DNA from: Mobula birostris
Taxonomy: Eukaryota
Length of the DNA: 64,000 nt
Direction of reading: 5' to 3'
Assembly: GCF_030028105.1 (NCBI RefSeq)
Contig: NC_092387.1
Coordinates: 37,953,590 to 38,017,589 of the forward strand
Part shown: positions 18,775-55,691 of the stretch, piece by piece
How positions within the stretch are numbered: position 1 is the first letter of the stretch
How the letters are laid out: each line of letters opens with the position of its first letter
The notes under the pieces: model-generated
Database searches by the model: none
Told to the model about the DNA's origin: nothing
Seen by the model: the letters and a program-made list of their open reading frames with translations, nothing else
Position numbers and translations under genes: made by a program

Positions 18775-18910
18775 CTACAACAGTTTTTTACACATTTCCG
18801 AATTGGCTTGGTGAAGAGGTAACTCTGCTTCCTGAGCAGTCCTTGTTCTCTTCTTTCTCTTGATAAACGCTACGTGCTCTTGCAATGATTTGTAGATTGT
18901 AACCTCCTCT
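18775..18910 (-). CDS. mttp-like: MTTP-family terminal coding exon 18: EEVTIYKSLQEHVAFIKRKKRTRTAQEAELPLHQANSEMCKKLL-stop
   Basis: ttttcAG acceptor, PLHQ.NSEMCK C-terminal hallmark, TAG at 18775-18777. Confidence 0.94.
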
Positions 18911-19119
18911 CTGAAAACAAGACAATTTAAGACTAACTTCAAAAGTTTATTTGAACTGCACTTGAATAATTTTCAAAATAATAGATATTTCAACATATTC
19001 ATTCCTATTGTGTCAGTCTTAGAAAGGGAAAAGTTTGATATGCTTAACATTAGCTTCTCAGAGTGTAATTATTTATAGCTGAGAGTTCACGCATTGAGTC
19101 AATTAATGCTCCATTTCAT

Positions 19120-19430
19120 CTTAAAACCCATAATCCAGACTGACATTTCAGTATTGTACCATGAGAAACCCAGTCACAGAACTACTGTCTTTCAACTCAT
19201 CTGCTTGCTCAGCTGATTGAAAAAGAAATGAATTCTCTGTATATTTTCACCAATGTTTATACATCAACCAACAATGACATTTAGAACTGGACCAGTAATT
19301 CATTTCAATAGTAGTTCATATTTGTGGGTTCTTAGTAAGAGTAAATTAGTTTTTGTGTTCCTCCAATTTATAACAGTGCTCTCCACTTCAAAAATAATTG
19401 TCTGCTACATGCCTTGAAAATTATGATAAT
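19120..19430 (+). mobile_element. Ancient DeuSINE-like remnant in the last mttp-like intron
   Basis: Collinear degraded matches to the recalled Deu-domain SINE: cataatccagactgac, ccaatgtttatacatcaaccaaca, tttgtggg, taacagtg..cacttcaaaa. Confidence 0.45.
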
Positions 19431-19885
19431 AGGGAAACTGGCAAATTATTTTTTTAAAAGGTCAAAACAATAGCTACCAATTATTAGCCAGAAAAATGAA
19501 ATTGTCTACATATCATTCTGTACAGAAACTATGCAGCATGTCCCTTCATAAAAAAAAGGTCAGTACCAAAAATTCATGCAGGTGTTTCTCAGTTCAACAC
19601 CAAATTCCCTGATTTATTCACAAAACATTATTCTCAAAATTCTGATGTACGCTGACACATTTGCAGGCTGGGTGCAGCAGAACAGTTATGAAAATGCTGA
19701 GGAAAGACTGGTAAACTTGGTGACCATGTACATAATCAGCCAAGTGTGCCCTGGCAAACAAGTGGGCAGAAATTCATTGTGAATCAGTATTTGAGAGGGA
19801 GGGGTAGCAATGGTGAGGGAGCATTTACTGGGTGATTAAGAGGCTGGGATCAGATCTGCAGGCTCATAGTGGGGAGATCAGGTTT

Positions 19886-20168
19886 TGACTGATTGATTGA
19901 TTGACAGTGCAGAGTAGGCCTTTCCTGCCCTTCGAGCTGCACCGCCCAGAAATTCTCCACTTTATTCCTAGCCTAGTCACAGGACAATTTACAATGACCG
20001 ATTAACCTACCAACTGCTATGTTTTTAGACTGTGCGAGGTAACAAGAGCACCCAGAGAAAACCCGCTGTCACGGGGACAACATACAAACCTTTTACAGGT
20101 AGTGGTGGGAATTGAACCTGGGTCACTGGTACTGTAAAGTGATGTGCTAAACGGTATGCTACCGTACC
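19886..20168 (-). mobile_element. tRNA-derived V-SINE (HE1-like)
   Basis: Box B GGTTCAATTCCC (20107-20118), V-domain-like gtttgtatgttgtccccgtgacagcgggttttctctgggtgctc, and a (TCAA)n tail. Confidence 0.8.
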
Positions 20169-20603
20169 ATGGGTGGCACGGTTAAAAGGGTGAGATGAGT
20201 ACTGGATTGGACTTCCCCACCCCCTAATGTGGAATCTGCTTGCCTGCCAGCAACACACACTGACCCTATTTAAGTAAAACCAAGATGGTCATTCCAAAAC
20301 GAATTTATGGTGCAATGTTCCAAACGGATTCACCTGATTATACCAAAATAACAAAGATCCGTGTCTGTAAATGCCCAATTAAATTTCCAGAGTGAGCTGA
20401 AGTGATCTCTTAATGATTTTAATCATGATTGAGTTGGGGAAAAATATTTCAAATTACATAATACCAAAGAAAAATTAACAGCTGGCAAACAGCTTGGTTA
20501 TAGAGCATTAGGACCCTCTTGTAGGTGATAGTTGAACAAGCTTTATAGCAGAAACTAAGGGGTAAAATGTATATATAGGAGAATGGATTGAAGGAAGATT
20601 TAC

Positions 20604-20774
20604 CTGTATTTGAATGGCCCATTCAACAGTTGAAGGCAAACAGGAATGGGGGAATCTATAAATTCAACAGAGCTGATGAAATCCAAAGAAGCTGTTGCCT
20701 CATAATTATTTTTCACTCCTATTTGAAGAGAGGTGGTGTCGACTCTGATTATAGAATTAATCACCAGTGCCCCT
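20604..20774 (-). CDS. mttp-like: MTTP-family exon 17 equivalent (171 bp): GALVINSIIRVDTTSLQIGVKNNYEATASLDFISSVEFIDSPIPVCLQLLNGPFKY(R)
   Basis: Lies within ORF 20600..20857. L.FIS.V.F...P..VC.Q motif; ctgcAG and GTAAAT boundaries. Confidence 0.92.
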
Positions 20775-22329
20775 CTGCAGATCAAATAGAAAAATATTAT
20801 ACAATACTTAAAGGTCTGATCAAGCAATAGATAGGCATTTACACTGCTTCCAGTCAATTGTTCACCCTTCCATTTTGGATCAGGGAAATTTTAAAGATCT
20901 TAAAACCAGTTCCCAGCATTTTACAGCTTAATTTCATTTGCATTGGAGACACCTATTGTACTATATATCAACAGACTGGTTAAACACAGACTATTCAGAG
21001 AGTGGATATGAAGAAATAATGCATGTGGAATAACACTTGTGGCATCCCTAACTTTGTTTATGATTCTATTGACACTTACCCGGGCTAACAATTTTTTTAT
21101 GTGGCTCGAGATCAAGTTTTGTCTGATCGAATTTCTGGGAAATACATTGGTAAATCATATATCTGATCCCAATCCACTTCCTAAAAATCTTCATTAGCTG
21201 GGGAAAAGAGCTTTGAATCCTCAGCAACAATTAAATATGCTATGGCTTGAGAAGTAAACTTAAAGAATCCCATTGGTGTGTTAGAGGGCAAAACCTACAT
21301 ACCTTTACTGAGAGACAACACCAGAAAGAATGTAACTTGAATTGTTGTCATATCAATTTACAAGAGTAAATGTAGACAAAAAAACAAGGTCCATTTGGTG
21401 ATACATTGACAACAGTCTGTGGACTGGAAGTGAAATGCAAACTCTCACAGAAAATAAAATCCCTTTTGCTTCAAAGGAGAAATTTTATGCTGAAATCAGA
21501 AAAAAAATGTTTACTAGTATTTCAAAGAATTAATTCAAGCTCTTTTTAAAATCTAATTTTATTACAAAGTGAATTCCTCCTTACACTTCTTTTTGGAGAA
21601 GCTGACTAAAGCTGAGGCACTCTATTGAAATGGTAACCATCTATGGTCTCCACCTAGTGGTTACTTATCATGCAGGAGCCTAGATCGTGATTCCTTAGAT
21701 GGTAGAATAAGCTTGAGAAAAACACAGGTAAGGCAATGAAAATAAGCGATTCCCATCACGGGAAGGCTTTTCTCTCCGCCATCCTACAGGGATAATGAAA
21801 GCAAAAATTTTGTTTCCTAATTGTTTGCCAATGATGCAGAAATAGGTATAGGGGCACGTAGCGAGAAAGATAATGTGAAGCTCAAGTGGGCTATAGAGTG
21901 AATGACTGGTCAAAGTTAATAAATATAGAGGAAAGTAGTGAGAGAGCAATAGGGGCAAAAAATTAAATGGGGAGAGGCGTTCAGAATATAAAATTAGAGT
22001 GGCCAAGCAAGGTGCAAAGACAGAAAAAGGTGGGTGATTGGGAAAACAGAGGGGAGCAGAAAAGAGAGGGCAACAAAATGAGAATGGTGGGAGATAATGA
22101 AAGAGAGCGCAAGAGAGAGACAGTGAATGGCAAAATATATTAGAGGGTCAGCACAGAATAAGGTGAAGTGAGATAGAGTGTGAAGTAGAGAGAGAGCGGT
22201 AGCTGTGGGGTGGCAAAAAGTGTGTTAATTTAATACTGTGGCTCTCTGAAATTGTTTTGCTGAAATGGCCCCTCCCCACTTGAAAAGTAATGAAACTCAT
22301 TGCATTAGATGTACCCATTGATTGATTGT

Positions 22330-23998
22330 ACATAGAAACAATACAGGTCCTTCAGCCCACAAAGTTGTGCCGAAAATGTCCTACCTTGGAAATTCCCATA
22401 GGTTACCCATAGCCCTCTATTTTTCTAAGCTCCACGTACCTATCCAAAAGTCTCTTAAAAGACCCTATTGTATCGGCCTCCACCACCGTTGCCGGCAGCC
22501 CATTCCACGCACTCACCACTCTCTGCGTAAAAAACTTACCCCTGACATCTTCTCTGTACCTACTCCCCAGCACCTTAAACCTGTGCCCTCTTGTGGCAAC
22601 CATTTCAGCCCTGGGAAATAACCTCTGACTATCCACACGAACAATGCCTCTCATCATCTTATACACCTCTATCAGGTCACCTCTCATCCTCCGTCGCTCC
22701 AAGGAAAACAGGCCGAGTTCACTCAACCTGTCTTGATAAGGCATGCTCCCCAATCCAGGCAACATCCTTGTAAATCTCCTCTGCACCTTTACTATGGTTT
22801 CCACATCCTTCCTGTAGTGAGGCGACCAGAACTGAGCCCAGTTCTCCAAGTGGGGTCTGACCAGGATCCTATATAGCTGCAACATTACCTCTCTGCTCCT
22901 AAATTCAATTCCACGATTGAAGATCAATACACCGTATGCCTTCTTAACCACAGAGTCAACCTGCGCAGCTGCTTTGAGCGTCCTATGGACTCGGACCCCA
23001 AGATCCCTCTGATCCTCCATACTGTGAAGAGTCTTACCATTAATACTATATTCTACCATCATATTTGACCTACCAAAATTAACCACTTCACACTTATCTG
23101 GGTTGAACTCCATCTGCCACTTCTCAGCTCAGTTTTGCATCCTATCAATGTCCCGCTCTAACCTCTGACAGCCCTCCACACTATCCACAACACCCCAAAC
23201 CTTTGTGTCATCAGAAACTTCACTTCTTCATCCAGGTCATTTATAAAAATCACGAGAACAGATCCCTGAGGCACACCACTGGTCACTGACCTCCATGCAG
23301 AATATGACCTGTCTACAACCACTCTTTGCCTTCTGTGGGCAAGCCAGTTCTAGATCCACAAAGCAATGTCCCCTTGGATCCCATGCCTCCTTACTTTCTC
23401 AATAAGCCTTGCATGGGGTACCCTATCAAGTGCCTTGCTGAAATCCATATACGTTACATCTACTGCTCTTCCTTCATCAATGTGTTTAGTCACATCCTCA
23501 AAAAATTCAATCAGGCTCTTAAGGCACGACCTGCCCTTGACAAAGCCATGCTGACTATTCCTAATCATATTATACCTCTCCAAATGTTCATAAATCCCAC
23601 CTCTCAGGATCTTCTCCATCAACTTACCAATCACTGAAGTAAGACTCACTGGTCTATAATTTCCTGGGCTATGTCTACTGCCTTTCTTGAATAATGAAAC
23701 AACATCCGCAACCCTCCAATCCTCCGGAACCTCTCCCGTCCCCATTGATAATGCAAAGATCATCGTCAGAGGCTCAGCAATCTCCTCCCTCACCTCCCAC
23801 TGTAGCCTGGGGTACATCTCATTTGATCCGGCAACTTATCCAACCTTCCAAAAACTCCAGCACATCCTCTTTCTTAATAGCTACATGCTCAAGCTTTTCA
23901 GTCCGCTGCAAGTCATCACTACAACCACCAAGATCTTTTTCCATAGTGAATACTGAAGTAAAGTATTCATTAAGTACCTCTGCTATTACATTTGCTCT
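22330..23998 (-). mobile_element. Relatively young 5'-truncated CR1 LINE
   Basis: ORFs 23350..23817 (NYRPVSLTSV...QHGFVKGRSC...YMDFSKA) and 22403..23113 (236 aa RT C-terminus). Confidence 0.95.
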
Positions 23999-24227
23999 CA
24001 GATGAAGGAAGTTCCAAGAATTCATGTAACTAATTAGAACTGAACAACTTGAAATTGTGCTGATTTCTAAGAAAATATAAGTACTGTAATTATGAAAGGA
24101 AACTAATAGAACAGGAAATCAAGAGAGGTACCACTGTCACATCAGAATTATTCAGTAAGCTATGTCGGTGCCTTATTACTAAAGAAAGAAACTCAATTAT
24201 CTGATTTCAATATGTTTTCTTCCATAC

Positions 24228-24352
24228 CTGCTTTTAATGTTGGTTTTACAATTTTGACTCCATAAGCTGAGCTCAATAGTGCCTGAAACATCAATTCCAA
24301 GCCCCCCTTCAAATTCAGCATTTGTTAGAAGGCCCGACTGCAACATGAATGC
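24228..24352 (-). CDS. mttp-like: MTTP-family exon 16 equivalent (125 bp): AFMLQSGLLTNAEFEGGLGIDVSGTIELSLWSQNCKTNIKS(R)
   Basis: Read manually (not in the ORF track). LQSGL, GGL.ID.SG and SLW motifs; tcctgcAG and GTATGG boundaries. Confidence 0.94.
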
Positions 24353-24619
24353 CTGCAGGAAAATTGGATGCTATGAGACTGTGAAAAAATAATTTGTTTT
24401 TGAACATCGCCAAGAGCAGTGGATATATGTGTTATGTTCATTATGTACATGCCATTTAAACATTTCAAATCTGTATTTAAAGGGTACATGGTGAATATTG
24501 TTATTCCTACTTTCAATGTGTTTAATTTCACACATCACTGCCATATTTTTAATATTTCACATTTTAATAAAGCCACAGCTACTGGTTTTTTAAAAAAAAA
24601 TTCTTGGGAAAACAAGCAT

Positions 24620-25320: not shown

Positions 25321-25930
25321 TGGAGTTTAGAAGAGTTCGAAGGGATTGAAAGATATAATGTTCTGAGGGCTATCCAGGTAGATTGGAGATGATATGTGCT
25401 CATCTAGAAGAAATTAAAACTAGGGGTTTACGATTTAAAATGCTATCAACTACTTAAGACGGAGACAGAGAGATTTCTCTTCTCTTGGAGAATCATGAGT
25501 GGTTGGAACGCTTTTTCTCAAAGAATGGTGGAAGCAGTCTTTGAGTATTTTTAAGGAAGGGATAAATAACCACTTGAAAAGTAAGAGAATAAAAGGTTAC
25601 CCTAGATAAACATGAATATGAAGTTCACATCAGCCATGTCTTTAATAAGTAGAAGGGAAAGCTTGTGATAGTGAATGTCCAACTCCTGTTCATAATTTGC
25701 CTAATGCAGGAGAAAACTGATTCATCTACTGAAGCTTCAAACAGAATCAACCACTATACACTCAGAGAACATTCAGTTCTGATCTTACGAGGGAAGAAGA
25801 ATCATGAATGAAGCTGCTTCAGCCAATTTAATTAACACATTGTTCGCCACCTTATAAATACCTCTCTCTCATTTTAATCTCACACTCTCATGTCACTTCA
25901 CCTTAATCGGTAACACTTTTAGCAATCTCC

Positions 25931-27135
25931 TAAACACGAGAAAGGCTGCAGATGCAGGAAATCCAAAGCAACACACACAAAACGCTGAAGGAACTCAGCA
26001 AGTCAAGCAGCATCTATGGGAATGAATAAACAGCTGATGTTTCAGGTCAAATTCTTCAGGACTGGAAAGGAAAGGGGAAAATGCCGGAATAAAAAAGGAA
26101 GGAGGCTAGCTAGGAGACGATAGGTGAAGCCAAGTGGGTGGGAAAGGTAAAGGGCCAAAGAAGAAGGAATCTGATTGGAGAGGAGAGTAGACCATAGGAG
26201 AAAGGGAAGGAGGAGGGGACCTAAGGGGAAATGACAGGCAGGTGAGAAGAGGTTAAAGGTCAGAGTGATGAATAGAAGAGGGCAAGGGAAAAATGTTTTA
26301 CTGGAAGGAGAAATGGATATTTGTGCCATCAGATTGGAGGCTAACCAGATGGAATATGAGGTGTTTCTCCTCCATCCTGTGAGTGGCCTCATTGTGGCAA
26401 AAGAGGAAGCCAAGGACTGACATGTCGGAAAGGGAATGGGGATAGGAATTAAAATGGTTGGCCACTGGGAAATTCTGCTTCTGGCAAATGGAGCAGTGTG
26501 TTCGACAAAGTGGTCCTCCAATTTACAGTGGGACTCATCAGTGTAGTGCAGGCCATATCAAGAGCACCAGATACAAAACATGACCCCAACACATTCACAG
26601 GTGAAGTGTTGCCTCACCTAGAGGGACTGTTTGGGGCCCTGAATAGAGGTGAGGGAGGAGGTGAATGGGCAGGTGTGGTACTTTGGCTGCTTGCAGGGAT
26701 AAGTGCTGGGAGAAAGATTAGAAAGGAGGGCCGAATGGACAAGGGAATCATGGAGGAAGCGATCGCTGTGGAGAGTGGGCAGATGCTAAAGATGTGTTTG
26801 GTGGTAGGAACCCGCTGAAGATGGTGGTAGTTTCAGAGAATGATATGCTGGATGCTGAGGCTCATGAAGTGGTAGGTGAAGACAAGAGGAACACTATCAC
26901 GGTCAAGGCAGCGGGAAGATGGGGTGACTGTGGAAGTCTGGGAAATGGAGGCGATGTAGGTGAGGGCAGCATCAATGGTGGGGGAAGGAAAACCCCATTC
27001 TTTGAAGAATCTCTGATGTCCTGGGAAGAAAAGCCTCATCCTAGGAACTGATGTGGCAGAGATGAAGGAACTGAGAAAAGGGAATAGCGTTTTTACAGGA
27101 GAAAGGATGTGAAGAGGTATAATCAAGATACCCAT
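25931..27135 (-). mobile_element. Penelope-like element: RT C-terminal part, GIY-YIG endonuclease remnant and terminal repeat
   Basis: FFKEWGFP...VPLVFTYH and VRQHFTCECVGVMFCIWCS*YGLHYTDES...FVEH (degenerate GVIY/YIGET). Confidence 0.85.
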
Positions 27136-27630
27136 GGGAGATTAATTAGAGGTGATTGGTTTAATTAGTTCAGCATAACTTTGTGGGATGGAGGGCCTGG
27201 CCTGTGCAGTACTGATCAATGTTCTTTGCCAAGAGGATGTACATGTTTTATGTGTTCAAGGTTTTCAGCTGATACTTGACAGATAACCTGTAACATTGCT
27301 CTGTTTATGATTTCTCTCTCCATATACATGTTCCCATCTCCTGATTCAAATTACATTAACATTCCAATCTATTGTTTTTGTTTTGAAATGTGTCCACCCT
27401 CAAAACAATAACTTATCAGAGTTCTTACGCTTACTGGTTAACCTATGATTTTCCAGCATTCTCTTGTTTCTCAATTAATTCACTTCAAACCCATAAAATT
27501 ATAATAGAAGTGGCAAAATGATAATCCTATTCGACTGTTGTGATTGACCATACCAGATTAATGAAAATATTGGTTACACAAGTTAATAATATCTATTTTG
27601 TAATATCAAGGATGTGTCTGAGTTCATTAC

Positions 27631-27864
27631 CTGTCGATGGTCAATCAGTAAAATGGATCCTTTTATTATACTTGTAGGCTCTTCAGTGACTGACCAGAGC
27701 TTATCCATTAGATCACTGTATCCTTGGAAAAATACAATGGGAGGGAACTGGACATCAAAGAGAATCACTGACATACCAGCCATGACTTCATCATCATCAT
27801 CATCATCAGCCTGAGCTGAGCTTTCCTTGAAGAATGAGTCCAGACCCTTTGCTTCAATTGATAC
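27631..27864 (-). CDS. mttp-like: MTTP-family exon 15 equivalent (234 bp): VSIEAKGLDSFFKESSAQADDDDDDEVMAGMSVILFDVQFPPIVFFQGYSDLMDKLWSVTEEPTSIIKGSILLIDHRQ
   Basis: AGMS.ILFDVQ..P..FF.GYSDLM.K and LLIDH.Q hallmarks. Canonical splice sites. Confidence 0.95.
27790..27807 (-). repeat. (GAT)6 coding microsatellite encoding a poly-Asp run
   Basis: atc x6 on the plus strand inside exon 15. Confidence 0.95.
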
Positions 27865-30930: not shown

Positions 30931-32179
30931 TGGGAAGACCCCAGTCAGTCTGAGTTGGCAGCAACATCTCACGTTCCATCACACTGAGCTCTAGTGCCCT
31001 TAAGGCTGTGTGCTCCTGCTACTGACTCACGACTGCACTGCCAGATCCAGCTCAAACCACATCATCAAGTTAACTGATAGTACAACAGTGGTTGGCCTTA
31101 TCAGCAACAATGATGAGTCTGCCTACAGAGAAAAGATAGAGAGGCTTGTCAAATGGTGTGAGAACAACACACTGAGTCTCAATGCAGACAAGACAAAAAG
31201 ATGATTGTGGACTTCAGGAAGATGCAGGTCAACTACTCTCCCTTGCATAGCAATTGCTCTGCTGCAGAGAGAGAGAGTGAAGATCACAAAGTTCCTCGGT
31301 GTGCATATAATACAGTCTAAGCTGGACCCACAACACCTCCTCATTTGTCAAGAAGACACAGCAGCATCTACGCATTCTGAGGAGACTGGGAGATGCAAGG
31401 CTTCCTGCTCCCATTCTAACAACTATCCCCCGTGTCCGGTCTGGCTGCAGCATTGTGTGGTGCGGAATCTGCAGGCATCGGATCGCAAGACCCTACAGAT
31501 GATAGTAAAAACCAATGAGAGTAACATTGGGGTCTTCCTCCCCACTATTTGTGACATTTACTGGGACCGTTGTAGATGAAGGGCCCAAAATAATGTTGAG
31601 GATCCCTACCTTTGACCCACTACCGTCAGGAGGGAGCTACAGGAGCATCAGGACTGGGTAACAGCTCCTTCCCTCAGGCTGTGAGAGTAAAAAATATTCT
31701 GCTACCACTGAGGTCTCGTCACCAGGACAGCGAGCTATTTACCGTTTACTGTACTGTTTACTGTTTACCTATGCTGCACACCATATGCATCTTGAATTAT
31801 ATTTTGTTGACTTCTTTATGGTAATATTCGTTTTATGTGCTGTGTGTAGTATATGTTTTGCGGGTGCACCGTGGTCCAAGGGAACATTGTTTCATTGGGT
31901 TGTATATATGTACCGTCAGGTGACAATAAACTTGAAATTGAGGACTCACTCAGCTTGGTCACAAATGGTGATACTGAGCCACACTGAAAATCCCAACAGA
32001 GTTCATTGTTCCACTTGTTACTTACAGTGCTTTTTCAAACTGTCCTTCAACATTCATTGGTGGGTGGTATTCTGGAGGTTTCCTTACACTTGTTTGACCT
32101 GAGGACTAAAAGACTTTGTGATATCTGGACTTAATGTGCTACCACCTCTGGTGTGTCTCTCTTGCTAGTGGGACAGGGC

Positions 32180-32530
32180 CTAACCAGGGACTAAGATGGA
32201 AGATTCTGGCTTTATAAAGCATTGGCGAGACCTCACTTGGAGTATTATGAGCATTTTTGAGCCTCTTATCTTAGAAAGAATGTGCTGAAAGCGGAGAGGG
32301 TTCGAAGGAGGTTCACAAAAATGATTCCAGGACTGAATGGTTCGTATATGAAGAGCATTTGATAGCTCTGGGGCTATATTCACTAGAATTCAGAAGAATG
32401 AGGGGTGATCTCGTTGAAACCTATCAAATGTTGACAGCCTTGATAGAGTGGATGTGGAGAGGAGGTTTCCTCTGGTGGGAGGGAGTAAGAGCAGAGGACA
32501 CAGCTTCAGAATAGAGTGGTGTCCTTTTAG
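32180..32530 (+). mobile_element. CR1 ORF2 3' fragment
   Basis: Matches 2720-3050. Confidence 0.85.
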
Positions 32531-32639
32531 AATGGAGGTGAGGAAGAATGAGTAGACCAGTGTTTCCATTTGGGGAATGCAAGGGCCCAACAGCACTACA
32601 GGCAGAGGCTGACACTACTTTGTAATAATAAAGAACCAA

Positions 32640-33495
32640 CTGGAAGAAGATGGCACCAGCGAACAACTCGACCAAGGGCAACATCCTCCAGACGGTTCGC
32701 GAAATTAATTACTTTACGCCTTCGTTTTCTTTCATATGTAGTTCTGCTACTGTTGGAGCCTATGATCTACATTTTGGTGGTGTGTTTTCAGGTTGATTGA
32801 GCAATCTAGCGCTTTGCTGTCTCTGAGAGGACTCGGAGAGGCTTCAAGAGAAGCGTGCAGCCTCGAGGTCAAGAAGCCTGTGAGCCCATGATTGACTCCA
32901 TTTCTCACCAATCTCGCCAATTAAAGCATCAAGGAAAACTGAAATCATTGAGGCGAGAACAGAAGGCGAGGTGTTCAGCACCATCGGCCAGCCTCTTCTG
33001 TTTGCTGCTGGAGAAAGATGTCTGCATGTGACAGTCTGTCTCTCCCTCTTGCCTGCTGATCCTGGAAGCACCTCCCTGCATTCAAATGGTCTCTCTCTCT
33101 CTCTCTCCCTCAAAGCTGTCGGAAGAGAGCACTGGAGTCCTAGATCTTGGGCAAAGATTAATCGAGGCAATTTGTGGATTGGACTCTGGAGCTCCAGTTA
33201 TGATGTGTTTCTGGTTCTGGCTGCTCTTTTTGTTGCTATTTTGAGTGATATTGATCGGGGCTGTTTGCAGATAACAAACTGAGCTGAACTGAATATGCCT
33301 GAACTCTTTTCGATGTTGTGATTTTTGCTCTTTTTTCCGTTGCCATTTGCACGGTGTTTTTTTTTTACGTGTGGGGGATTTGATGTTTTTCTTTAAATGG
33401 GTTCCATGGTTTTCTTTGTTATGTGGCTATCTATGGGAAAGACTAATCTCAGGGTTGTAACTGCATACAAACTTTGACAATAAATGTACTTCGAT
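32640..33495 (+). mobile_element. Non-coding element ending in a Rex1-type 3' tail (non-autonomous)
   Basis: Ends aatctcagggttgta...tttgacaataaatgtactt, like the reverse complement of the Rex1 tail at 45910-45980. No RT coding remnant. Confidence 0.5.
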
Positions 33496-33573
33496 GTCAA
33501 AATTTCTCTAGAGTCCAAGTCAACCTCTAAGAACAATGTGATGTAACTCTTCAGCAGATTATTGCCTCTCTTC

Positions 33574-33653
33574 CAGGGGTTCCTGAACTGGGATCCACAG
33601 ATCCCTTGCTTAATGCTATTGGTCCAGAGTTTTAAAAAGGTTGGGAACCTCTG
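33574..33653. mobile_element. 80-bp hAT-type MITE, second copy (inverted relative to 40669)
   Basis: caggggttcc...ggaacctctg TIRs. The internal sequence is the reverse complement of 40669-40748. Confidence 0.8.
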
Positions 33654-34263
33654 CTGTATTGAAAGACAGATGAGTTAGATATGGCCCTTGTGACTAAAGG
33701 GGATCAGAGGGTATGGAGAGAAGGCAGGTACAGGGTTCTGAGTTGGATGATCAGCCATGATCATACTGAATGGCGGTGCAGGCTCAAAGGGCCGAATGCC
33801 TACTCCTGCACCTATTTTCTATGTTTCTATGTTTCTATTCTTGAGCAAATTATTCTTTTTTTGGATTGGGGACATGCCATCAGAGAACAGTTTAGTCCAT
33901 CAGGAAGACCGCATTGCTACCTGTGGGCAGATAGCTGTTCACTAGAAACAGAGATAAACCTTTCATAATTGCATCTAGTCTCTTCACCAATGGTCCTCAA
34001 CAATGCAGAAATCAACCCCTGGGAGCAGAGTATTGTTCAAAAGAAATAAAATAACTTGGAGAAACCTAAAGAAAGGGGGGAGTAGGAAGCTGCGCTCTGA
34101 GATATGTCAACATATTGTGATGGATCTAGATGAGTCTTATTCCTGCACTGACCAATGGGAACACAAACACAAGAAAATCTGCAAATGCAACACACCCAAA
34201 ATGCTGGAGGAACTCAGCAGGCCAGGCTGAATCTGCTGATGTTTTGGGCCAAGTCCCTTCATC

Positions 34264-34575
34264 TCTGATGAGAGTCCTTGACAAGGATCGTTTGGACCCA
34301 GATGCTGGGGTATCTGAAGCAAGGTTCCAGAAACGGTATCGAACTGGATCTGAACACAAAACAAATGCTAGACAATATCACTAGTAGGCTTAAGGTTGAG
34401 CACCGAACCACAGTTCAGATGTTCCTTAAGCACGCGATTCTTGGTGCTCGAAACATGATTATCAATAAGTGGGAACGTTCTGAACACTTCAAGGGGCTGT
34501 GTCAGCTACCTGTACTCCAGTGAGTTTGAGCGTCTAAATCCTGGACGCTGGCGCGGTTGGAGCTGTCTTGTAACA
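34264..34575. mobile_element. Candidate solo LTR inserted in a Penelope terminal-repeat fragment (about 34160-34650)
   Basis: Ends ...TCTTGTAACA and starts TCTGATGAGA (possibly a decayed TGT). Flanked by a tcatc/ccatc 5-bp near-duplication that splits the PLE motif ttcatc|agga. Confidence 0.45.
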
Positions 34576-35431
34576 CCATCAGGAAACCTTTTCCCTTCCT
34601 TTCCAGTCCTGATGAATGGACTCGGCCCAAAACATCGACTGTTTACTCTGAATATTGTAAGTTGTTAATAGAGTTTCCTTCAGGCTCTGAAGCTGACTGC
34701 TGGATTAATTGCTGTTCTAAAGAAGTATGCGGCAGCACAGAAATCTGTCCACACCTGGGAGCTCGAATTTATATTGGGATGCTGAAAAATGGCTCCCTGG
34801 AAATGTTTGCAATTGCTAGCCACTAAAATTCTATCTTCAATGCATTGAGCAAGAAAGTCAGTAAGATTAGATCTAATTACTAGGCATATATTAGTAATAG
34901 ATTCCTAGACATACTTTACATTAAGCTGTCTATAGTGCTGAAGTAAATATACACATATATTCAATAGAATAAATGCTACAAGAAATCTTCTCTTCTTTTG
35001 TATCTCTTACCACACTGACAGAGACGTAGTTTATTGGATTAAGATTTAATTCCCTTTTCTTTAAGCAGGCAGAGCTACCATTATTTCCCTTTGCTTTAAA
35101 CAGATCAATCTGCCACTTATAGTTTGAAGCCTGCCTGCAGACTCTTTCTTCCCGAGTTGGAGGTGGAACGTTTAGGACAATTGTAACTGATGTCACATAT
35201 GTGCACATAGCTGCAATATTATTCAATATCTAGAGTTTATAAACTTGTTTAGATCTGAAATTGAATTTAATATTTGTTCCTGAAAAGAAAAGCATTTTCT
35301 TCTTGTTACGGGAGTGATTCAAATCTTTATAATTTTTATAAACTGAATGTTAGTTATTAGATTGCATATTTAATAAGTAGCTAGTCTCAGATGAATATGA
35401 AGCCAAGAGATGCACGATTATATTAACATAC

Positions 35432-35677: not shown

Positions 35678-35775
35678 CTGCTAAATATCCTGAAGCGGAA
35701 GATGAACTCCCAGTTCTGGACAAACAATTGTAATTATTTATCATTGGATCTTTCAGGAATTCACGGATTACTTGT
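35678..35775 (-). CDS. mttp-like: MTTP-family exon 13 equivalent (98 bp): QVIREFLKDPMINNYNCLSRTGSSSASGYLA
   Basis: Read manually on the minus strand. NY..SR.GSSSA.GY motif, AG and GTAAAA boundaries, phases 2 to 1 fit both neighbours. Confidence 0.92.
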
Positions 35776-36665: not shown

Positions 36666-36880
36666 CTTGCTGGGTGGTGGTCTGAATGCATGATATTCTG
36701 CAGCTTTGCCACTGTAAACTTAGAGAGTTCCAATTCCATTTCTCCCAAAGACAGCACAATATTTTTCAATTCCATGGATGAAAGTTGGTTATTGAGGATC
36801 ACATCCAGTGCAGCCATTCGCACAGCAGCCCCATATTGTTCCCTGCTTTGGTGAAAAATTCTATTCATCTGCTTCTTCAC
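36666..36880 (-). CDS. mttp-like: MTTP-family exon 12 equivalent (215 bp): VKKQMNRIFHQSREQYGAAVRMAALDVILNN...DHHPA
   Basis: ORF 36662..36880 with AG and GT ends. Residues equivalent to R540 and E570 are retained. One codon longer than the recalled human exon. Confidence 0.94.
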
Positions 36881-38646: not shown

Positions 38647-38859
38647 CTCTTGAGTGATATAGACACTTGGGAATCTCTGTAGTGCAGTCACAGCAATAGA
38701 TGTCACAGAATTTCTTTGATTCCGGGTGTACTGTAACAATACTGGTATAGTTTCTGGAAGAAGTGCGTTCTTAAGTGCAAGAAGGTACATCTTTATATCA
38801 GCCTCTTCTTTAGCTGAATTCAGCCCATCCAAAATCACTTTCTTTGCAATTTCAACTTC
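38647..38859 (-). CDS. mttp-like: MTTP-family exon 11 equivalent (213 bp): EVEIAKKVILDGLNSAKEEADIKMYLLALKNALLPETIPVLLQY...ALQRFPSVYITQE
   Basis: Contains the MYLLALKNALLPE hallmark. ttccAG acceptor and GTAAAG donor. Confidence 0.95.
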
Positions 38860-40668: not shown

Positions 40669-40748
40669 CAGGGGTTCCCAACTGTTTTTATGCCATGGAC
40701 CAATACCATTAAGCAAGAGGTCCGTGGACCCCAGACTGGGAACCCCTG
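40669..40748. mobile_element. 80-bp hAT (Charlie-like) MITE
   Basis: TIR CAGGGGTTCCCA/TGGGAACCCCTG. Perfect 8-bp TSD cttttaaa at 40661-40668 and 40749-40756. Confidence 0.92.
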
Positions 40749-41137: not shown

Positions 41138-41245
41138 CATGAGTTTGCACTGGTTCCTCAGACACATTTTGCCAATCACTGCTCCGATCACTGAAATGGT
41201 GGTTTCCTGGACTTCCCTGCTCGCAATCTCGCCCTTAAGCTTAGC
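41138..41245 (-). CDS. mttp-like: MTTP-family exon 10 equivalent (108 bp): AKLKGEIASREVQETTISVIGAVIGKMCLRNQCKLM
   Basis: Lies within ORF 41060..41260. AG and GTTAGT boundaries. Conserved C-x4-C pair. Confidence 0.92.
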
Positions 41246-48900: not shown

Positions 48901-48957
48901 GAAGCTTTGTACATAGCCCACAGGACTTCGCCACAGTTCACCAGCACCCTCCTGAAT
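45908..48957 (-). mobile_element. Near full-length decayed Rex1/Babar LINE nested in CR1
   Basis: Minus-strand ORF remnants ([35 protein letters not shown]), (gaacttt)n tail, TSD agcaa at 45903-45907 and 48958-48962. Confidence 0.88.
48264..48370. repeat. About 54-bp tandem duplication inside the Rex1 EN region
   Basis: gtaaactccagtggg.atcatggatgagaa.tctc.aagtaaa.tagaatgga occurs twice. Confidence 0.9.
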
Positions 48958-50780
48958 AGCAATTCAGAAGGTACAGGATAGATAAATCCCAAAGAATAAG
49001 GAGAATTCTAAAGGGGGAATGAGGGAGCCATGGCTGACAAGGGAAGTCAAAGATAGCATAAAAACAAAACAAAAGAGGGAACATATAATAGAGCAAAAAG
49101 TAATGGAAAATTAGAGGATTGGGAAACTTTTAAAAGTCAACAGAAGGCAACCAAAAAAAGCTGTGAGGAGAGAAAAGATGAAATATGAAAATAAGCTAGC
49201 CAATAATATAAAAAAAGATACCGAAATACTTTTCAGATATATAAAGAGTAAAAGAGGGGCAAGAACGGATATTGGAGCACTGGAAAATGGTGTTGCAGAA
49301 GTTGTAATGGGGGTAAAGAAACTGTGGAATAACTTTTGTGTCAGTCTTCACTATGGAAGACATTAGCAGTATGCCAGAAATTCAAGAGTGTCAGGGGGCA
49401 GAAGTGAAAGTTATTGCTGTTACTAAGGAGAAGGTACTTGGGAAGCTGAAGGGTCTGAAGGTGGTTAAGTCACCTGGACCAGGTAGACCACACTTGAGGG
49501 TTCTGAACGAGGTCGCTGAATAGATTATGGAGTCATTAGTAATGATTTTTCAAAAATCACTAGATTCTGGAATGGTTCTGGAGGACTGGAAATTGCAAAT
49601 ACCAATCCAATCTTTAAGAAAGGAGGGAGGCAAAAATAGAAATTATTGGCCAGTTGGCCTGACTTCAATCGTTGGGATACTTGGTGGCACTTGATAAACT
49701 AGCCCAAAGTCAGTATTATTTCCTTAAAGGGAAATCTTGCCTGATAAATCTGTTGGAATCCTTTGTGGAAATAACAGGTAGGATAGACAAAGGTTAGACA
49801 GTGCATGTTCTTTACTTGGATTTTCAGAAGGCCTTTGACAAGATACCACATATGAAGCTGCTTACCAGGATAAGGACTCATGGTATTGCAAGAAAGATAC
49901 TTGTATTATAGAAGATTGGCTTACTGGCAGGAGAAAGAGAGTGGGAATAAGGGGGGCCTTTTCTGTTTGGCTGCCAGTTACTAGTGGTGTTCTGCACAGG
50001 TCAGTATTGGGACCACTTCCTTTCATGTTATATGTTCATGATTTGGATGAAGAAATTGATGGTTTTATGGCCAAGTTTGTGGATGATACAAAGAAAGGTG
50101 GAGGGGTTGGTAGGATGAGGAAGAGGGAATCTGCATTAATGACACTGACAGATTAGGAGAATGTACACAGTAGTGGAAGATGGGATGTAGTGTAGAGATG
50201 TATATGGTTAGGCACTTCAGCAGAAGGAATAAATGCATAGACTATTTTGTAAATGGGGAGAAAATTCAAAAGTCAAAGGTACAAAAGGACTTGGGAGTCC
50301 TCAGCTGAGGCTTTACAAGGCATTGGCCAGACTGCATTGTATTATGAGCAGATCTGAGCCTTCTATCTAATAAAAGATGTCCTGGCTTTGGAGAGGGTAC
50401 AGAGGAGATTCACGAGGATGATTCAGGGAATAAAAGGTTTAATGTACGAGGAGCATTTAATGGCTCTGGGCTTGCACTCACTGGAGTTTAGAAGAACGGG
50501 GGTGAGGAGTGGGTTCTCACTGTAACCTATCGAATATTGAAAGGCCTAGACAGAGTGGATGTGGAGAGGATGTTTCCTATAGCAGGGGAGTCTAGGACCA
50601 GAGGGCACAGCCTCAGAATAGATGGATGTCCTTTTAGATGAGGAGAAATTTCTTTTAGCCAGAGGGTGGAGAATCTGTTGAATTCATTGCTACAGACGTT
50701 TGTGGAAGCCAAGTCATTGGGTGTGTTTAAAGCCGAGGTTGATAAATTTTAGATAGTCAAGGCATCAAAGGTTACAGGGA

Positions 50781-50920
50781 ACACACATCAAAGTCTAAGG
50801 GTCTCAGCCTGAAACATTGACTGTACCTCTTCCTAGAGATGCTGCCTGGCCTGCTGCGTTCACCAGTGAACGTTTCATGTGTGTTGCTTGAATTTCCAGC
50901 ATCTGCAGAATTCCTAGTGT
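50781..50920 (+). mobile_element. 140-bp Penelope-derived insert with a perfect 14-bp TSD
   Basis: aaaggttacaggga at 50767-50780 and 50921-50934 flanks PLE terminal-repeat sequence. Confidence 0.88.
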
Positions 50921-51059
50921 AAAGGTTACAGGGAGAAGGCAGAAGAATGGGGTTGAGTGGGGTAATACATCAGCCATGATGAAATGATGGAGCAGATTCA
51001 ATATGCCGAGTGACCCAAATCTGCTCCTATATCTTATGGTCTTATAGTGTGGCCTCGTG

Positions 51060-52312
51060 TTTTTCAAAACACACCACACTGCACCACACTGCACACAGTT
51101 CTCTCTCACTTGGACAACAAAGACACATGCCAGAATCCTGTACATTGATTTCAGTTCAGCGTTCAATACCATCATCCCACAGAGACTAGTGGAGGAACTG
51201 TCACTGCTTGGCCTTAGCACTGCCATGTGTCGCTGGATTCTGGATTTCTTGACAGAGAGACCACAGTCAGTCCGTGTTGGCAGGAACATCTCTGACTCCA
51301 TCACATTGAGCACTGGATCCCCACAAGGCTGTGTGCTTAGCCCATTGCTGTTTACACTGCTAACACATGACTGTGCAGCCAGATTCAAGGAGAACCTGAT
51401 CACTAAATTTGCAGACGATACCACAGTGGTGGGGCTCATCAGCAAAAATGATGAAACTATGTACAGGGAGGAGGTCAAACACCTAGAGAGCTGGTGCAGT
51501 GATAACAGCTTGATGCTTAATGTCACCAAAACCAAGGAGATGATCGTCGATTTCAGACGGTCTCAGCCTGAGCACACACCCCTCAGCATCAGCGGCTCCA
51601 CAGTGGAGAGAGTGGAAAACATCAAGTTCCTTGGGGTGGAGATCTCGGACAATCTCACCTGGTCCAGAAACACCACTGGGATTGTGAAACGGGCCCAGCA
51701 GAGATTGCACTTTCTGAGGAAGCTTAAACAAGCATCACTCCCCACTAACATCTTAACTACATTCTACAGAGGCGTGGTTGAGAGCGTGCTGACCTTTTGC
51801 ATCACAACCTGGTACTCCAGCTGCAGTGCTGTCGACAAAAAAGCCTTGCAGAGGGTGGTTAGGGGAGCAGAGAAGGTTATTGGGATCTCCCTACCTTCTG
51901 TCCAAGACCTCTTTCAGAGTCGATGCCTCCAGAAGACACGGTGCATCATTAAAGACCCCTCACACCCTCTCCATGAACTGTTCGTTCTTCTGCCATCAGG
52001 CAAATGTTACAGGAGTATCAAAACTAAAACCACAAGGCTACTAAACAGCTTCCTCCCACAGGCAGTCAGACTGCTAAATAGCTGCTCCACCTGACTCTGC
52101 TTTGGACACTTTTAACTTGCTCTGGACACTTATAACTGATTTAACTGACGTGTGGCCATCGTGTTTTACTATTTATTGTTATGTTTATTATTTAGTGTTG
52201 CGTTTGTTATGTTATGATTGCACTGCCCCTGAGGAACGCTGTCTCATTCTGCCCTGCAGAGCTGATGTATGGTTAGAATGACAATAAAGTTTTTGGAATC
52301 TTGAATCTTGAA
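51060..52312 (+). mobile_element. Young 5'-truncated Rex1/Babar LINE with a long open RT frame
   Basis: ORF 51057..52094 (345 aa): [34 protein letters not shown]; (gaatctt)n tail. Confidence 0.95.
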
Positions 52313-52429
52313 ATGCTTATCCTCTATTCTAAGCAGTGATTTCATGGAGTAAGGGAAAATTTATGTTGCGTTAAGGAGGATTTCAACACATGTTAAAGCT
52401 TCTTCTCCATTTGATTTGGAATCTTTTCC

Positions 52430-52900
52430 CTCAATGATTTGTGGTCGGTTTCTGATGTTAGTTCTGAGAATGGCAAGGCCAGTACAATGGAGCAGACTGA
52501 AGGTAATTAGAGCCGTATTGGGATGTTAGCCTGGGAGAGAACACTGATGTTTGTTTGGTTATCCTTTCAGTAGATTCAGAACATTTTGCCAAAACGGTCT
52601 TTATGGTATATTTCCAGTATTCTACTGCAGTTAGTCCACGTTTCAGAAGCGTACAGGAATGCAGTGATATGGCAGACCATGGTTTGTTTTACCATGGTTA
52701 TTAATCTTCAAACACCTTTCCTTAATCAATGGGGTGCATTGAAGGTGCTGCGTGCCTTTATAAGAGTCGGATCCTGAGATATGACAACAGGTCCACCTTT
52801 TGGCCATTATGTATTGTCCACTTCTCAGGAAAAATTACTGGTTCTCCACTCGCAAGGCAGCAAGCTTCTATTGGCTACTGGAACATAAGATTTTATTCCT
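52430..52900 (-). mobile_element. Old RTE-clade fragment
   Basis: Minus-strand remnants YASETWTN, KDNQTNISVLSQANIPI and LHCTG, similar to 16285-16615. Confidence 0.55.
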
Positions 52901-53021
52901 GCAGCTTAGTAGTAGAAAATTATTTAAGCATATTGATTTCTTATTACTGGGCTCACTCAAATCACGTACTGAGTAACATGAACCACTCAAGCATCTGATC
53001 CCGTAATACTCACATACGTAC

Positions 53022-53190
53022 CAGCAACATATTTAAAAGCTCCTTAGATGGGTGAGAAGACAAGGCAGCAGCGTGCAAAAATGTCTGCATTTGAGGAACT
53101 TGTTTCTCTGTGGTGAAGTCCAAATATTCCGAGAGTGCACTCAGGGATGATTCTGTCTGCGCTGCTGTCGCTGAGTCTATCAGAAAGGAG
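53022..53190 (-). CDS. mttp-like: MTTP-family exon 9 equivalent (169 bp): SFLIDSATAAQTESSLSALSEYLDFTTEKQVPQMQTFLHAAALSSHPSKELLNMLL
   Basis: Lies within ORF 53010..53204. Canonical AG/GT ends. D..T.AQT..SL...LDF and SHP..ELL motifs of the MTTP helical domain. Confidence 0.93.
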
Positions 53191-53502
53191 CTAGAATACA
53201 TCAAAAATGGTAAGAAGCCTTCATTTGTAGAAATGTAGTCACTGGGACTGAAATTCTATGGAAAACCTTCAGCTGTGTTTCATTCACAAGCAGGAAACTA
53301 TCTCAAGAGTCAAAATTTTATGAAGATTAAAGAGTCCAGCAGGCTTAAGTAGGGATGAAAGAGACTGCAGATGCAGGAACCTGAAACAACAAACGATCTG
53401 CTGGAGGAACTCAGTGGGTTGAGCAGTATCTGTGTGAGAAAAGGAAATGTCGACATTTTGGGTAAAAATTCTGCATCTGGGCTGAGAGTGGAGGTGAGAT
53501 GA

Positions 53503-53760
53503 GACCATAACACAATAAGACACAAGATCAGAATTTGGGCAGTTGGCCCATTGATTCTGCTCTACCATTTGATCATGACTGATTTATTTTCCCTCTCAAC
53601 ATCATTCTCCTGGCTTCTCCCCTTAACCTTTGACACCCTTTCTAATCAAGAACCTATCAACCTCCATTTTGCACATACCCAATGAATTGGCCTCCACAGC
53701 CACCCATGGCAATGAATTGCACAGATTCACAACCTTCTGCCTAAAGAAGTTCCTCCTCAT
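53503..53760 (-). mobile_element. CR1 3' end, preceded by a PLE fragment (53360-53500)
   Basis: Similar to 58523-58770. Confidence 0.8.
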
Positions 53761-55533
53761 GGCCAGAGATGGCCAGAATATTAATAAGAAAACGAGAGGC
53801 CATCATGTCTCTCCATCCTCAGACCTGATGCAGAGTTTACCTCCACCAGATTGTTTGTTACCAATGTCCTTTACGTGCTGCACCCCAGTTTTGGTAATTG
53901 TATATTTGAACATCTGGCGTTCGTATTTTCCAACAAATGGCTTTATCCAATGATAAATGACTCACAAGCTGGCAGGAAGCAAGGGGATCTGACCCAGAGT
54001 TTGTGCAGAGATACATGAAAACTCAGTGTCCCTTTTGGAGAAGTCATGAAGATTTTCAGAAAGAAAATGGCCTAAAAGTTCAACTATGTCGTACAATCAT
54101 TTTCTGTGCCAAGATGGATCCTTGAAAATACAATCACTAAATATCACCTGCACAGAACTGTACTGAGTGCAATAAGGGAGTCTTTAATTATGAAGCAGGA
54201 ATGAACCAGATGACTGTTTGGAGTTAGTTAATGGACCACAAATTACATGGGATCCTGCTGCTGAATACAACCATCAGCCTTTCTCCAGGTAGATCCTCCA
54301 TTAAGTTTTTGTCATTCCTCCTTGTTCTCTACCTTATCACTGATTTCTTGGTAATCTTCTTTTTGCTTCCTATGTTTCCTCAACAAGATCATCTGTCTGC
54401 CTGAGACCTTTGCCACCCCACAATCCCATTACATTGCCCACCAACAGCACCCCTTCACAATTTCTTGATAGTCTTTACTCTAAGCAAAAGGATGAGAACA
54501 TGAAGGTCTTTGTGTGAGGTTTTTGTTATTTAAAGTCCATTTTATCATGCACAACACGTTGAAGGAATATCGCCAGTTTCAGAGACCCACTCAAACGTTG
54601 CATGCATTCTCCTCTTTGCCCTTCCCTTGCTCTCTATTCCATCTCCTCATCATTAATCCTGCGCTTCCCTTCTACCTCCACCTGCTTCTTTCTCCCTCCC
54701 TTCTGCATGGCACAACTTCACAGCAGATTTGTTCTGTCATGATTTGTAGGTCAACGCCCACCATTCCACTCAAAAGCAGCAGAGATAAATTCTTGGTGAG
54801 CATTGAATATATGACTACGCACAACACTGAGGTTGGGAAAGCCTTCATCCTCTGACACTCTATGCAAAAATTATAAGTAAAAATAAAAGTCCAGCTTTCT
54901 CAATAATTGCTTTTTATTAAGAGGCTTACATGCCTTGTAGAAACAATAGTCACTAAACTATGATTACAGATTGAAACATAAGATTACACCATTCTACTTT
55001 GACTCCTCAGCTTTATGTGCAACAATTAACCAATGTGTTTTCTCCTAGCTATTATCAACTCACTATGCTGCCATATTTTGCAAACTATCCATTCTATTAC
55101 TAACTCATTGTTTTCACCATTTTTTCCTGCAGTCAAAAGACCTCTCTCTCTCTCTCTCTCCCCCTCTCTCTATCTAGCTCCCTTTCAATGTTGTTTTTCA
55201 TAATTTTGTTTAAATTTCATATTTCTACTTGTCTTCCTTTTCGTTTAATTGGCTGAAGGTTGACTAGATGTGAATGGTACGTTCTAGCAAGGTCTCCAAG
55301 ATTTATTTTTTTATATGAAACAATTTATCCCTTAGCATCACAGCTGAACTTTTCTTGCAACTCCAGAGAGAGGTCTTATGCACAAAATAGAGCCCTGACC
55401 TACAAAGAGGCTTATGAAAGAATAGGATTATTTCAGACCAGTAATAAGGTCTTTATCTGCCAAATAGTATTTTATAGAATCTTAAACAAATGTACATTTA
55501 GAATAGCAAAAGAAACACATGCCATGGACTCAC

Positions 55534-55691
55534 ATCTCATTTTCAGCTGCCTTCTTCAGAAAATTCAGGATCACCTTCGACTTTGCTTCTCTAAGCAGAT
55601 GAACAAAAGCCAGAAAAACTTTTGCTGCAGATACCTTGGAAAGATCTTGCACACTGTCTTTTTCATTGAGACTTTTCAAGTAGCCATTTGC
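55534..55691 (-). CDS. mttp-like: MTTP-family gene, exon equivalent to MTTP exon 8 (158 bp): ANGYLKSLNEKDSVQDLSKVSAAKVFLAFVHLLREAKSKVILNFLKKAAENE
   Basis: AG acceptor (plus ct 55692-55693) and GTGAGT donor (plus actcac 55528-55533). LSK..A...FLAF..LR.AK..IL pattern resembles MTTP. Phase 0 to 2 joins the next exon in frame. Confidence 0.9.

What the first reader, a model, noticed from the sequence alone, without database searches (positions are those of the whole stretch)
18775..55691. Intact but strongly diverged MTTP-family gene, probably a second (MTTP-like) lipid-transfer paralogue
Seen: 11 exons with canonical splice sites and a continuous 582-codon frame. Nine of the eleven exon sizes and all phases match MTTP exons 8-18 as I recall them (exons 12, 15 and the terminal coding part differ). 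Knowledge: canonical vertebrate MTTP keeps YSLDILYSGSGILRRSN in exon 14. Here it reads YNMDLLLGDTGILQNSL, about 12 of 41 identities to human by eye. An MTTP-like paralogue is annotated in some non-mammalian vertebrates. Inference: this is that paralogue in a chondrichthyan, implying an old duplication. It could be specialised for unusual elasmobranch lipid cargo (liver oil, yolk or histotroph lipids).
Basis: partly seen in the sequence, partly recalled or inferred. Interest (0 to 1): 0.7.

Follow-up and report, generated by a model that had tools for sequence, protein, structure and literature searches.

The report
Ray's second lipoprotein-loading gene, MTTPL
This is an intact, spliced copy of MTTPL, an ancient twin of the fat-loading gene MTTP that is kept across non-mammalian jawed vertebrates and likely loads lipid onto lipoproteins as it does in hens; the stingray version carries a glutamate at a site where a substitution stops human MTP moving triglyceride, an effect that is untested here.

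Summary
Observation confirmed. The 11 minus-strand exons are exons 8-18 of an intact 18-exon gene; exons 1-7 lie beyond the window. Its product equals the NCBI 'MTTP-like' protein labelled Mobula birostris, and public contigs show the spliced transcript. A canonical MTTP lies on another contig (40% identical). The tree places the window gene with chicken MTTPL and Xenopus 'mttp gene 2' (100/100), and joining it to MTTP is rejected (AU p=5e-6). Both copies follow a SPATIAL-family gene, and three more families pair the two chromosomes, so they are likely whole-genome-duplication twins. The gene is pan-gnathostome, not shark-specific, although a chicken paper lists it as bird-specific. Fold, disulfides and the main PDI anchor are kept, and the lipid pocket is remodelled across the whole clade. 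It is likely an ER lipid-transfer subunit for lipoprotein export, as shown for chicken. One new point: Glu869 replaces the glycine whose Gly-to-Val change abolishes triglyceride but not phospholipid transfer in human and zebrafish MTP. Glu occurs in 3 of 249 vertebrate proteins, all stingrays or mantas; its effect is untested. A known kind of gene, of modest interest.

The parts
55534..55691 (-). MTTPL exon 8 (158 nt), start of the alpha-helical domain, residue 305 onward
53022..53190 (-). exon 9 (169 nt)
41138..41245 (-). exon 10 (108 nt), holds Cys441 and Cys446 (human Cys440/Cys445)
38647..38859 (-). exon 11 (213 nt)
36666..36880 (-). exon 12 (215 nt; 212 in the canonical copy), holds Arg541 (human Arg540)
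35678..35775 (-). exon 13 (98 nt), loop that binds the PDI b' domain in human MTP
   Evidence: PMC6717300
35730..35735 (-). Asn606-Tyr607 codons (human Asn604-Tyr605, the main PDI anchor)
27631..27864 (-). exon 15 (234 nt; 228 in the canonical copy), with an Asp-rich loop of low model confidence
24228..24352 (-). exon 16 (125 nt), holds Gly750 (human Gly746)
20604..20774 (-). exon 17 (171 nt), A-sheet, holds Cys831
18775..18910 (-). exon 18 coding part (136 nt with stop), holds Cys882; lacks the Trp-containing tail of canonical MTTP
18829..18831 (-). Glu869 codon, aligned without gaps to human Gly865
17336..18774 (-). 3' untranslated part of exon 18; contigs end at 17336-17430, near AATAAA/ATTAAA-type hexamers at 17447, 17407 and 17357
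   Evidence: contigs cannot fix the true end

Best explanation
The window holds exons 8-18 of an intact, spliced MTTPL gene, a paralogue of MTTP that groups with chicken MTTPL, likely arose in an early vertebrate whole-genome duplication, and likely works as a PDI-bound lipid-transfer subunit in the endoplasmic reticulum that loads lipid onto nascent apoB- or vitellogenin-type lipoproteins. Shown here: gene structure, splicing, orthology by tree, a second canonical copy, shared neighbours, and conserved disulfide and PDI-anchor residues. Predicted: the three-domain MTP fold. Inferred: signal peptide and ER location, binding to PDI, lipid transfer, and a role in hepatic export for yolk. That last step is borrowed from the chicken orthologue, whose knockdown impairs estrogen-induced VLDL export.
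For: Tree of 28 proteins (IQ-TREE, 880 columns): 13 MTTPL rows and 11 MTTP rows each form one clade at 100/100; the window is in MTTPL, the genome's C5 copy in MTTP. Forcing the window into MTTP costs 274 log-likelihood units, p-AU 5.3e-6. Pfam MTP_lip_bd matches only two loci, C5 and C22, and an exon-12 search finds the same two. A SPATIAL-family gene lies upstream on the same strand at both loci; lizard MTTPL models are fused to TBATA, and that part matches the C22 neighbour best. RTP801_C, DUF1977 and synuclein each occur on C5, C22 and C8. Spliced contigs span exons 12-18 with exactly the predicted spacing in 3 of 4 runs laid, and the exon 17-18 junction shows in 4 of 4 runs. Of 28 differences in the exon-18 coding part over those four contigs, 8 codon changes alter a residue. 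The model (pLDDT 85, pTM 0.83) matches human MTP 6I7S at TM 0.91. All four cysteine pairs and Asn604/Tyr605, Arg540, Asp169, Asp361 and Gly746 equivalents are kept. Chicken function: PMC12947693, abstract, introduction and discussion read.
Against: There is no activity, PDI-binding or tissue data for any fish MTTPL. The runs laid are only guessed to be RNA and carry no tissue label. Several positions that matter in human MTP differ: Met600 to Pro, Tyr528 to Phe, Ser590 to Arg, Asn649 to Asp, Asn780 to Ser, Arg702 to Pro, Gly865 to Glu, so cargo preference may differ. Ray and chicken MTTPL are only 39% identical, no closer than ray MTTPL is to bat MTTP, so the estrogen and yolk role need not be shared. 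The chicken sections read report lipid levels in cells and animals, not purified-protein transfer. The lamprey position is unresolved (75/67), so the duplication round is not fixed. PCBD was found on C22 and C8 only.
Confidence: 0.8

Rival explanations
1. In stingrays and mantas, MTTPL has become a phospholipid-selective transfer protein with weak or no triglyceride transfer. Glu869 would disturb the outer A-sheet strand at the PDI a' contact, as Gly865Val does in human MTP, leaving triglyceride loading to the canonical MTTP.
For: Human G865V and zebrafish G863V abolish triglyceride transfer but keep about 80% of phospholipid transfer (PMC7444587, passages). At this column 3 of 249 vertebrate proteins have Glu (two Mobula, one Hemitrygon); 218 have Gly, 17 Ala, 5 Ser, and 6 lack the context. 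Of 18 chondrichthyan MTTPL rows, 14 have Gly, including sawfish and electric ray. Contigs of four further coded organisms show no change at the codon. Myliobatiformes feed embryos on uterine milk (PMC10015161, passages).
Against: Glu is not Val: it is unbranched and could pair with PDI Arg461, which contacts this backbone in human MTP. It is one of 46 consensus departures shared by the three proteins, and the window protein has 55 such departures against 35-46 in nine other chondrichthyan MTTPLs, so drift is a fair reading. Chicken MTTPL has Ala here and promotes triglyceride export. Amphioxus appears to have Glu and an acorn worm Asp at this site (read by eye). The link to histotrophy rests on a single origin.
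Confidence: 0.2
2. The gene is a diverged canonical MTTP orthologue or a ray-specific recent duplicate.
For: Same 18-exon layout and phases as MTTP; some amphibian MTTPL proteins are labelled plain MTTP by their sources.
Against: A canonical copy lies on C5 next to a tRNA m1G-methyltransferase gene and groups with MTTP. The window protein is 40% identical to it but 60% to chimaera MTTPL. The AU test rejects the grouping.
Confidence: 0.01
3. The gene is a decaying or non-functional duplicate.
For: Path length from the duplication node is about 0.99 for the window protein against 0.67 for the C5 copy (summed).
Against: The frame is open over 18 exons, spliced contigs exist in several organisms, most exon-18 differences are silent, and orthologues are intact from chimaera to chicken.
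Confidence: 0.02

Closest known systems
Chicken MTTPL (NP_001309733.1, P0196; chromosome 6)
   Same: Same clade at 100/100. Shared clade marks: Ser/Thr at human Leu648, Phe at Ile650, Pro at Met600, Phe at Tyr528, and no Trp tail.
   Different: Only 39% identical. Chicken has Ala, the ray Glu, at the Gly865 position. Estrogen induction and VLDL export are shown for chicken only (PMC12947693).
Human MTTP large subunit (PDB 6I7S, 8EOJ)
   Same: Three-domain fold, TM 0.91; four disulfide pairs, the Asn-Tyr PDI anchor and a hydrophobic pocket; the exon phases of the genome's own canonical copy.
   Different: A paralogue, about 38-39% identical. Pocket residues are remodelled (Leu648Thr, Ile650Phe, Phe767Leu, Asn780Ser). 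Trp occurs in the last three residues of 83 of 84 MTTP-side but 1 of 165 MTTPL-side proteins.
NCBI XP_072138634.1 'microsomal triglyceride transfer protein-like [Mobula birostris]' (P0001)
   Same: The 18-exon product rebuilt from G000 is identical over 886 residues.
   Different: An automatic label; no function, orthology or age is attached to it.
Xenopus tropicalis 'microsomal triglyceride transfer protein, gene 2' (P0398 cluster)
   Same: Falls in the MTTPL clade (name).
   Different: Several amphibian members carry the plain MTTP name in NCBI.

Membership tests
MTP large-subunit family | Vitellogenin_N plus MTP_lip_bd domains in a protein of about 890 residues | tested here: met
   PF01347 E 5e-43 and PF19444 E 8e-89 on P0001
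MTP large-subunit family | beta-barrel, helical domain and two-sheet lipid sandwich | tested here: met
   Predicted model, best match 6i7s_G, TM 0.91, rmsd 2.9
MTP large-subunit family | Conserved disulfides and PDI-contact residues Asn604, Tyr605, Arg540, Gln530, Cys827-Cys878 | tested here: met
   residue list from PMC6717300. The secondary anchor Met600 is Pro.
MTP large-subunit family | Obligate heterodimer with PDI in the ER | not tested
MTP large-subunit family | Triglyceride and phospholipid transfer; support of apoB secretion | not testable with these tools
   Needs an assay; the Gly865 position is Glu
MTTPL orthologue group | One clade with chicken MTTPL, to the exclusion of MTTP | tested here: met
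   100/100; same grouping in the 70-row fast tree
MTTPL orthologue group | Lies next to TBATA | tested here: met
   SPATIAL gene about 46 kb upstream, same strand; best match to the TBATA part of lizard fused models
MTTPL orthologue group | Estrogen-induced liver expression (chicken) | not testable with these tools
   Runs carry no tissue label
Canonical MTTP orthologue group | Groups with mammalian MTTP | tested here: not met
   AU p 5.3e-6; the C5 copy meets it
Canonical MTTP orthologue group | Adjacent to TRMT10A (neighbour recalled from the human map) | tested here: not met
   tRNA_m1G_MT matches at C5:172.90 Mb, beside the other copy, and on C7; none on C22
Whole-genome-duplication ohnologue pair | Several unrelated gene families duplicated between the two chromosomes | tested here: met
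   4 of the 5 families chosen for this test (SPATIAL, RTP801_C, DUF1977, synuclein) are on both C5 and C22; PCBD is on C22 and C8 only. The families were picked from recalled human maps, not blind.
Whole-genome-duplication ohnologue pair | Assignment to the first or the second round | tested here: inconclusive
   Lamprey unresolved. C5 and C8 copies are closest in RTP801_C and synuclein but not in DUF1977, which leans to the first round.

The most novel reading that the evidence does not exclude
Stingrays and mantas evolved a naturally triglyceride-deficient, phospholipid-selective MTP. Their MTTPL fixed Glu at the gate glycine whose mutation decouples the two activities in human MTP, splitting labour between two ancient ohnologues, possibly in step with uterine-milk feeding.
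Probability: 0.2. Interest if true: 0.62.

Novelty: new member of a known kind. Interest (0 to 1): 0.32.

Why it matters
MTTPL is studied in poultry and listed there as bird-specific or without mammalian homologue (PMC6839265, one section read). The tree and synteny show that it is as old as jawed vertebrates and likely a genome-duplication twin of MTTP. Lipoprotein and yolk studies in sharks, rays, amphibians, reptiles and some fish therefore need to consider two MTP genes, and some records named MTTP are really MTTPL. The stingray Glu869 offers a natural variant at the one site known to separate triglyceride from phospholipid transfer, a property sought for safer MTP inhibitors, and it can be tested with existing assays.

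Tried and rejected
A PDB sequence search with exon 14 alone found nothing; the full protein did. Pfam on single exons matched MTP_lip_bd in 4 of 9 stretches. The genome-wide ADAMTS spacer search missed the C22 neighbour, which a direct look then found, so negative family searches in this genome are weak. The Vitellogenin_N genome search ran with a stricter filter and missed both MTP genes, so it was not used for copy counting. My first automatic splice of the C5 copy cut exon 4 short; it was corrected. No RNA holder is listed as such by the run index, and contig depth was not used as expression level. The Atlas search gave family-level clusters without useful taxa. The lamprey placement test was uninformative. 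No complex prediction was run, as no PDI sequence was in hand. Two residue labels did not match the bat reference and were dropped: Cys289 as printed in PMC6717300 (the alignment shows that pair as CxxC ending at Cys301) and a recalled Arg634. Literature: searches listed no paper on MTTPL phylogeny, synteny or fish MTTPL; I saw these as listings only, and the library lacks most subscription papers, including the chicken group's earlier characterisation. No supplements were read. Pfam named none of 7 repeat-like intronic or flanking frames. Two earlier scan notes on Naegleria lipid-transfer proteins do not bear on this gene.
Full report
Observation. The gene is on the minus strand. Eleven exons between 55691 and 18775 have AG acceptors and GT donors and splice to 1749 nt, 582 codons and a stop. 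Four of nine exon stretches tested match Pfam MTP_lip_bd on their own. A search with exon 15 returned P0001 at 100% identity, labelled by NCBI 'microsomal triglyceride transfer protein-like [Mobula birostris]'. The spliced window product equals its last 582 residues. Exons 1-7 lie beyond the right edge of the window, and the 18 exons rebuilt from G000 give P0001 exactly.

Transcription. The run index listed 24 holders of exon 15, none on record as RNA, 18 guessed to be. In 3 of 4 runs laid, one contig of 4.3-4.7 kb covers exon 18 with its 3' flank, exon 15 and exon 12; the offsets between the pieces equal exons 16+17 and 13+14, so the introns are absent. The fourth run gave short pieces only. 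In a second set of four runs (four coded organisms, four studies, one run shared), each contig leaves exon 18 into the end of exon 17. The 28 differences in the exon-18 coding part of those contigs give 8 residue changes; the contigs are related, so this is only a hint of purifying selection. Tissue and level are unknown.

Second copy and neighbourhood. MTP_lip_bd matches two loci in G000: this one on C22 and a better-scoring one on C5. An exon-12 query finds only the same two. The C5 gene has 18 exons, 897 residues and the canonical exon-14 motif; it is 40% identical to the window gene and 59% to bat MTTP. A SPATIAL-family gene lies upstream and on the same strand at both loci; at C5 a tRNA m1G-methyltransferase gene sits between the two. 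That these are TBATA, C4orf17 and TRMT10A is recalled from the human map. Support comes from lizard MTTPL models fused to TBATA, whose TBATA part matches the C22 neighbour best. RTP801_C, DUF1977 and synuclein each have copies on C5, C22 and C8; PCBD is on C22 and C8 only. These families were chosen from recall of the human 4q/5q/10q paralogy, so this is a directed test. Downstream on C22 lie a START-domain gene closest to StAR and then an ADAMTS gene on the opposite strand.

Phylogeny. A fast tree of 70 proteins and a careful tree of 28 (26 of those 70 plus two added) agree. There are two clades at full support, each containing chimaera, sharks, rays, ray-finned fish, coelacanth and tetrapods. 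The window protein groups with chicken MTTPL and Xenopus 'gene 2'; the C5 protein groups with MTTP. Holding the window protein with MTTP is rejected (p-AU 5.3e-6). The duplication thus predates the split of cartilaginous and bony fishes. With the chromosome-scale pairing, a whole-genome duplication is the likely cause; PMC7269912 (passages) places both rounds before that split. Lamprey is unresolved (75/67). Neighbour families lean weakly to the first round, with C5 and C8 closest in two of three families. No mammal name appears among the 120 listed of 214 hits to alligator MTTPL, and the five named mammal rows all score as MTTP. PMC6839265 (one section) lists chicken MTTPL as lacking a mammalian homologue and calls such genes bird-specific. 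Loss in mammals is therefore likely, but monotremes and marsupials were not searched.

How it likely works. The model from an 81-row alignment (pLDDT 85) matches human MTP at TM 0.91. Mapping residues named in the structure paper (PMC6717300, parts 1-4 of 8 read) through bat MTTP shows that all four cysteine pairs, Asn604/Tyr605, Arg540, Gln530, Asp169, Asp361, Gly746, Phe813 and Val664 are kept. Human MTP needs PDI to stay soluble and lacks its own retention signal; the ray protein has an N-terminal hydrophobic helix and no KDEL, so the same arrangement is inferred. The pocket stays hydrophobic but is remodelled throughout the clade. Among 165 MTTPL-side and 84 MTTP-side proteins, classed by BLAST score and including isoforms and partial models, position 648 is Ser/Thr in 157 against 1, position 650 is Phe in 146 against 2, and position 767 is Phe in 6 against 84. 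The structure paper notes that pocket residues are generally similar rather than conserved, so this does not by itself show new cargo. In hens, MTTPL overexpression raises lipid export, and knockdown impairs estrogen-induced export (PMC12947693; abstract, introduction and discussion). The most likely role in the ray is the same kind of lipoprotein loading (confidence 0.8); the yolk and estrogen part is less certain.

The stingray residue. Glu869 aligns without gaps to human Gly865. Gly865Val removes triglyceride transfer and keeps about 80% of phospholipid transfer, probably by altering the PDI a' contact (PMC7444587, passages). In the 249 proteins the column holds Gly 218, Ala 17, Ser 5, Glu 3 and no usable residue in 6; the three with Glu are two Mobula species and Hemitrygon. 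Sawfish, electric ray, sharks and chimaera keep Gly. The four contigs keep the Glu codon. Against reading much into it: it is one of 46 shared departures from consensus, though only it and one other occur in no other row; the window protein departs at 55 sites against 35-46 in nine other cartilaginous-fish MTTPLs; Glu may behave unlike Val; and amphioxus seems to have Glu there too. I give a functional effect about 0.2.

Verdict. The gene is already annotated, and its kind has a published function in chicken. What this check adds is its age and likely ohnologue origin, not found in the seven literature searches named above, and one testable lineage-specific residue. Novelty: new member of a known kind; interest 0.32.

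Noticed in passing
G000:C22:37,927,607-37,928,805 (-), L046; about 44 kb beyond the MTTPL stop: Exons of a START-domain gene whose best PDB match is StAR (E 0.006), so a second lipid-transfer gene sits directly downstream of MTTPL on the same strand; probably a StAR paralogue.
   Followed up: partly
G000:C22:37,878,000-37,901,000 (+), L049-L051: ADAMTS gene (spacer, cysteine-rich and TSP1 exons) converging on the START and MTTPL genes. It is likely ADAMTS14, which from recall abuts TBATA in human, marking where MTTPL would have been lost.
   Followed up: partly
P0110, P0120, P0230, P0065/P0408: Xenopus, Bombina and Amia proteins labelled plain 'microsomal triglyceride transfer protein' or 'MTP' fall on the MTTPL side; comparative studies using these labels may mix paralogues.
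   Followed up: yes
P0172, P0195, P0228: Lizard gene models fuse TBATA to MTTPL, probably read-through or annotation joins of adjacent genes.
   Followed up: partly
P0231 (Clarias): A catfish keeps a fast-evolving MTTPL (branch 1.1), so at least some teleosts retain the gene.
   Followed up: no
C-termini of all MTP proteins: Canonical MTTP ends in a Trp-containing tail (83 of 84) that MTTPL lacks (1 of 165). Lamprey and sea urchin MTP also end with Trp, so MTTPL likely lost an ancestral tail of unknown role.
   Followed up: partly
window 19856-20519, 21848-23839, 25832-27159, 31808-35127 and others: Intronic high-copy repeats (very high summed contig depth). Several frames resemble LINE reverse-transcriptase ends from recall, but Pfam named none of 7 tested.
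   Followed up: partly
window 14858-15319 (-): A 154-residue open frame resembling, from recall, the restriction-like endonuclease end of a non-LTR retrotransposon; no Pfam match.
   Followed up: partly
G000:C22:37,889,900-37,894,200 and 37,938,100-37,942,000: Two fragmented LTR-retrotransposon-like insertions (gag-, RT- and integrase-like frames by eye), the first inside the ADAMTS gene.
   Followed up: no
G000:C16:6.38-6.55 Mb and 13.09-13.14 Mb; C11:109.8 Mb; C3:202.9 Mb: Three vitellogenin-like loci on C16 and two weaker Vitellogenin_N loci, possibly apoB-type: candidate clients of MTTPL.
   Followed up: no
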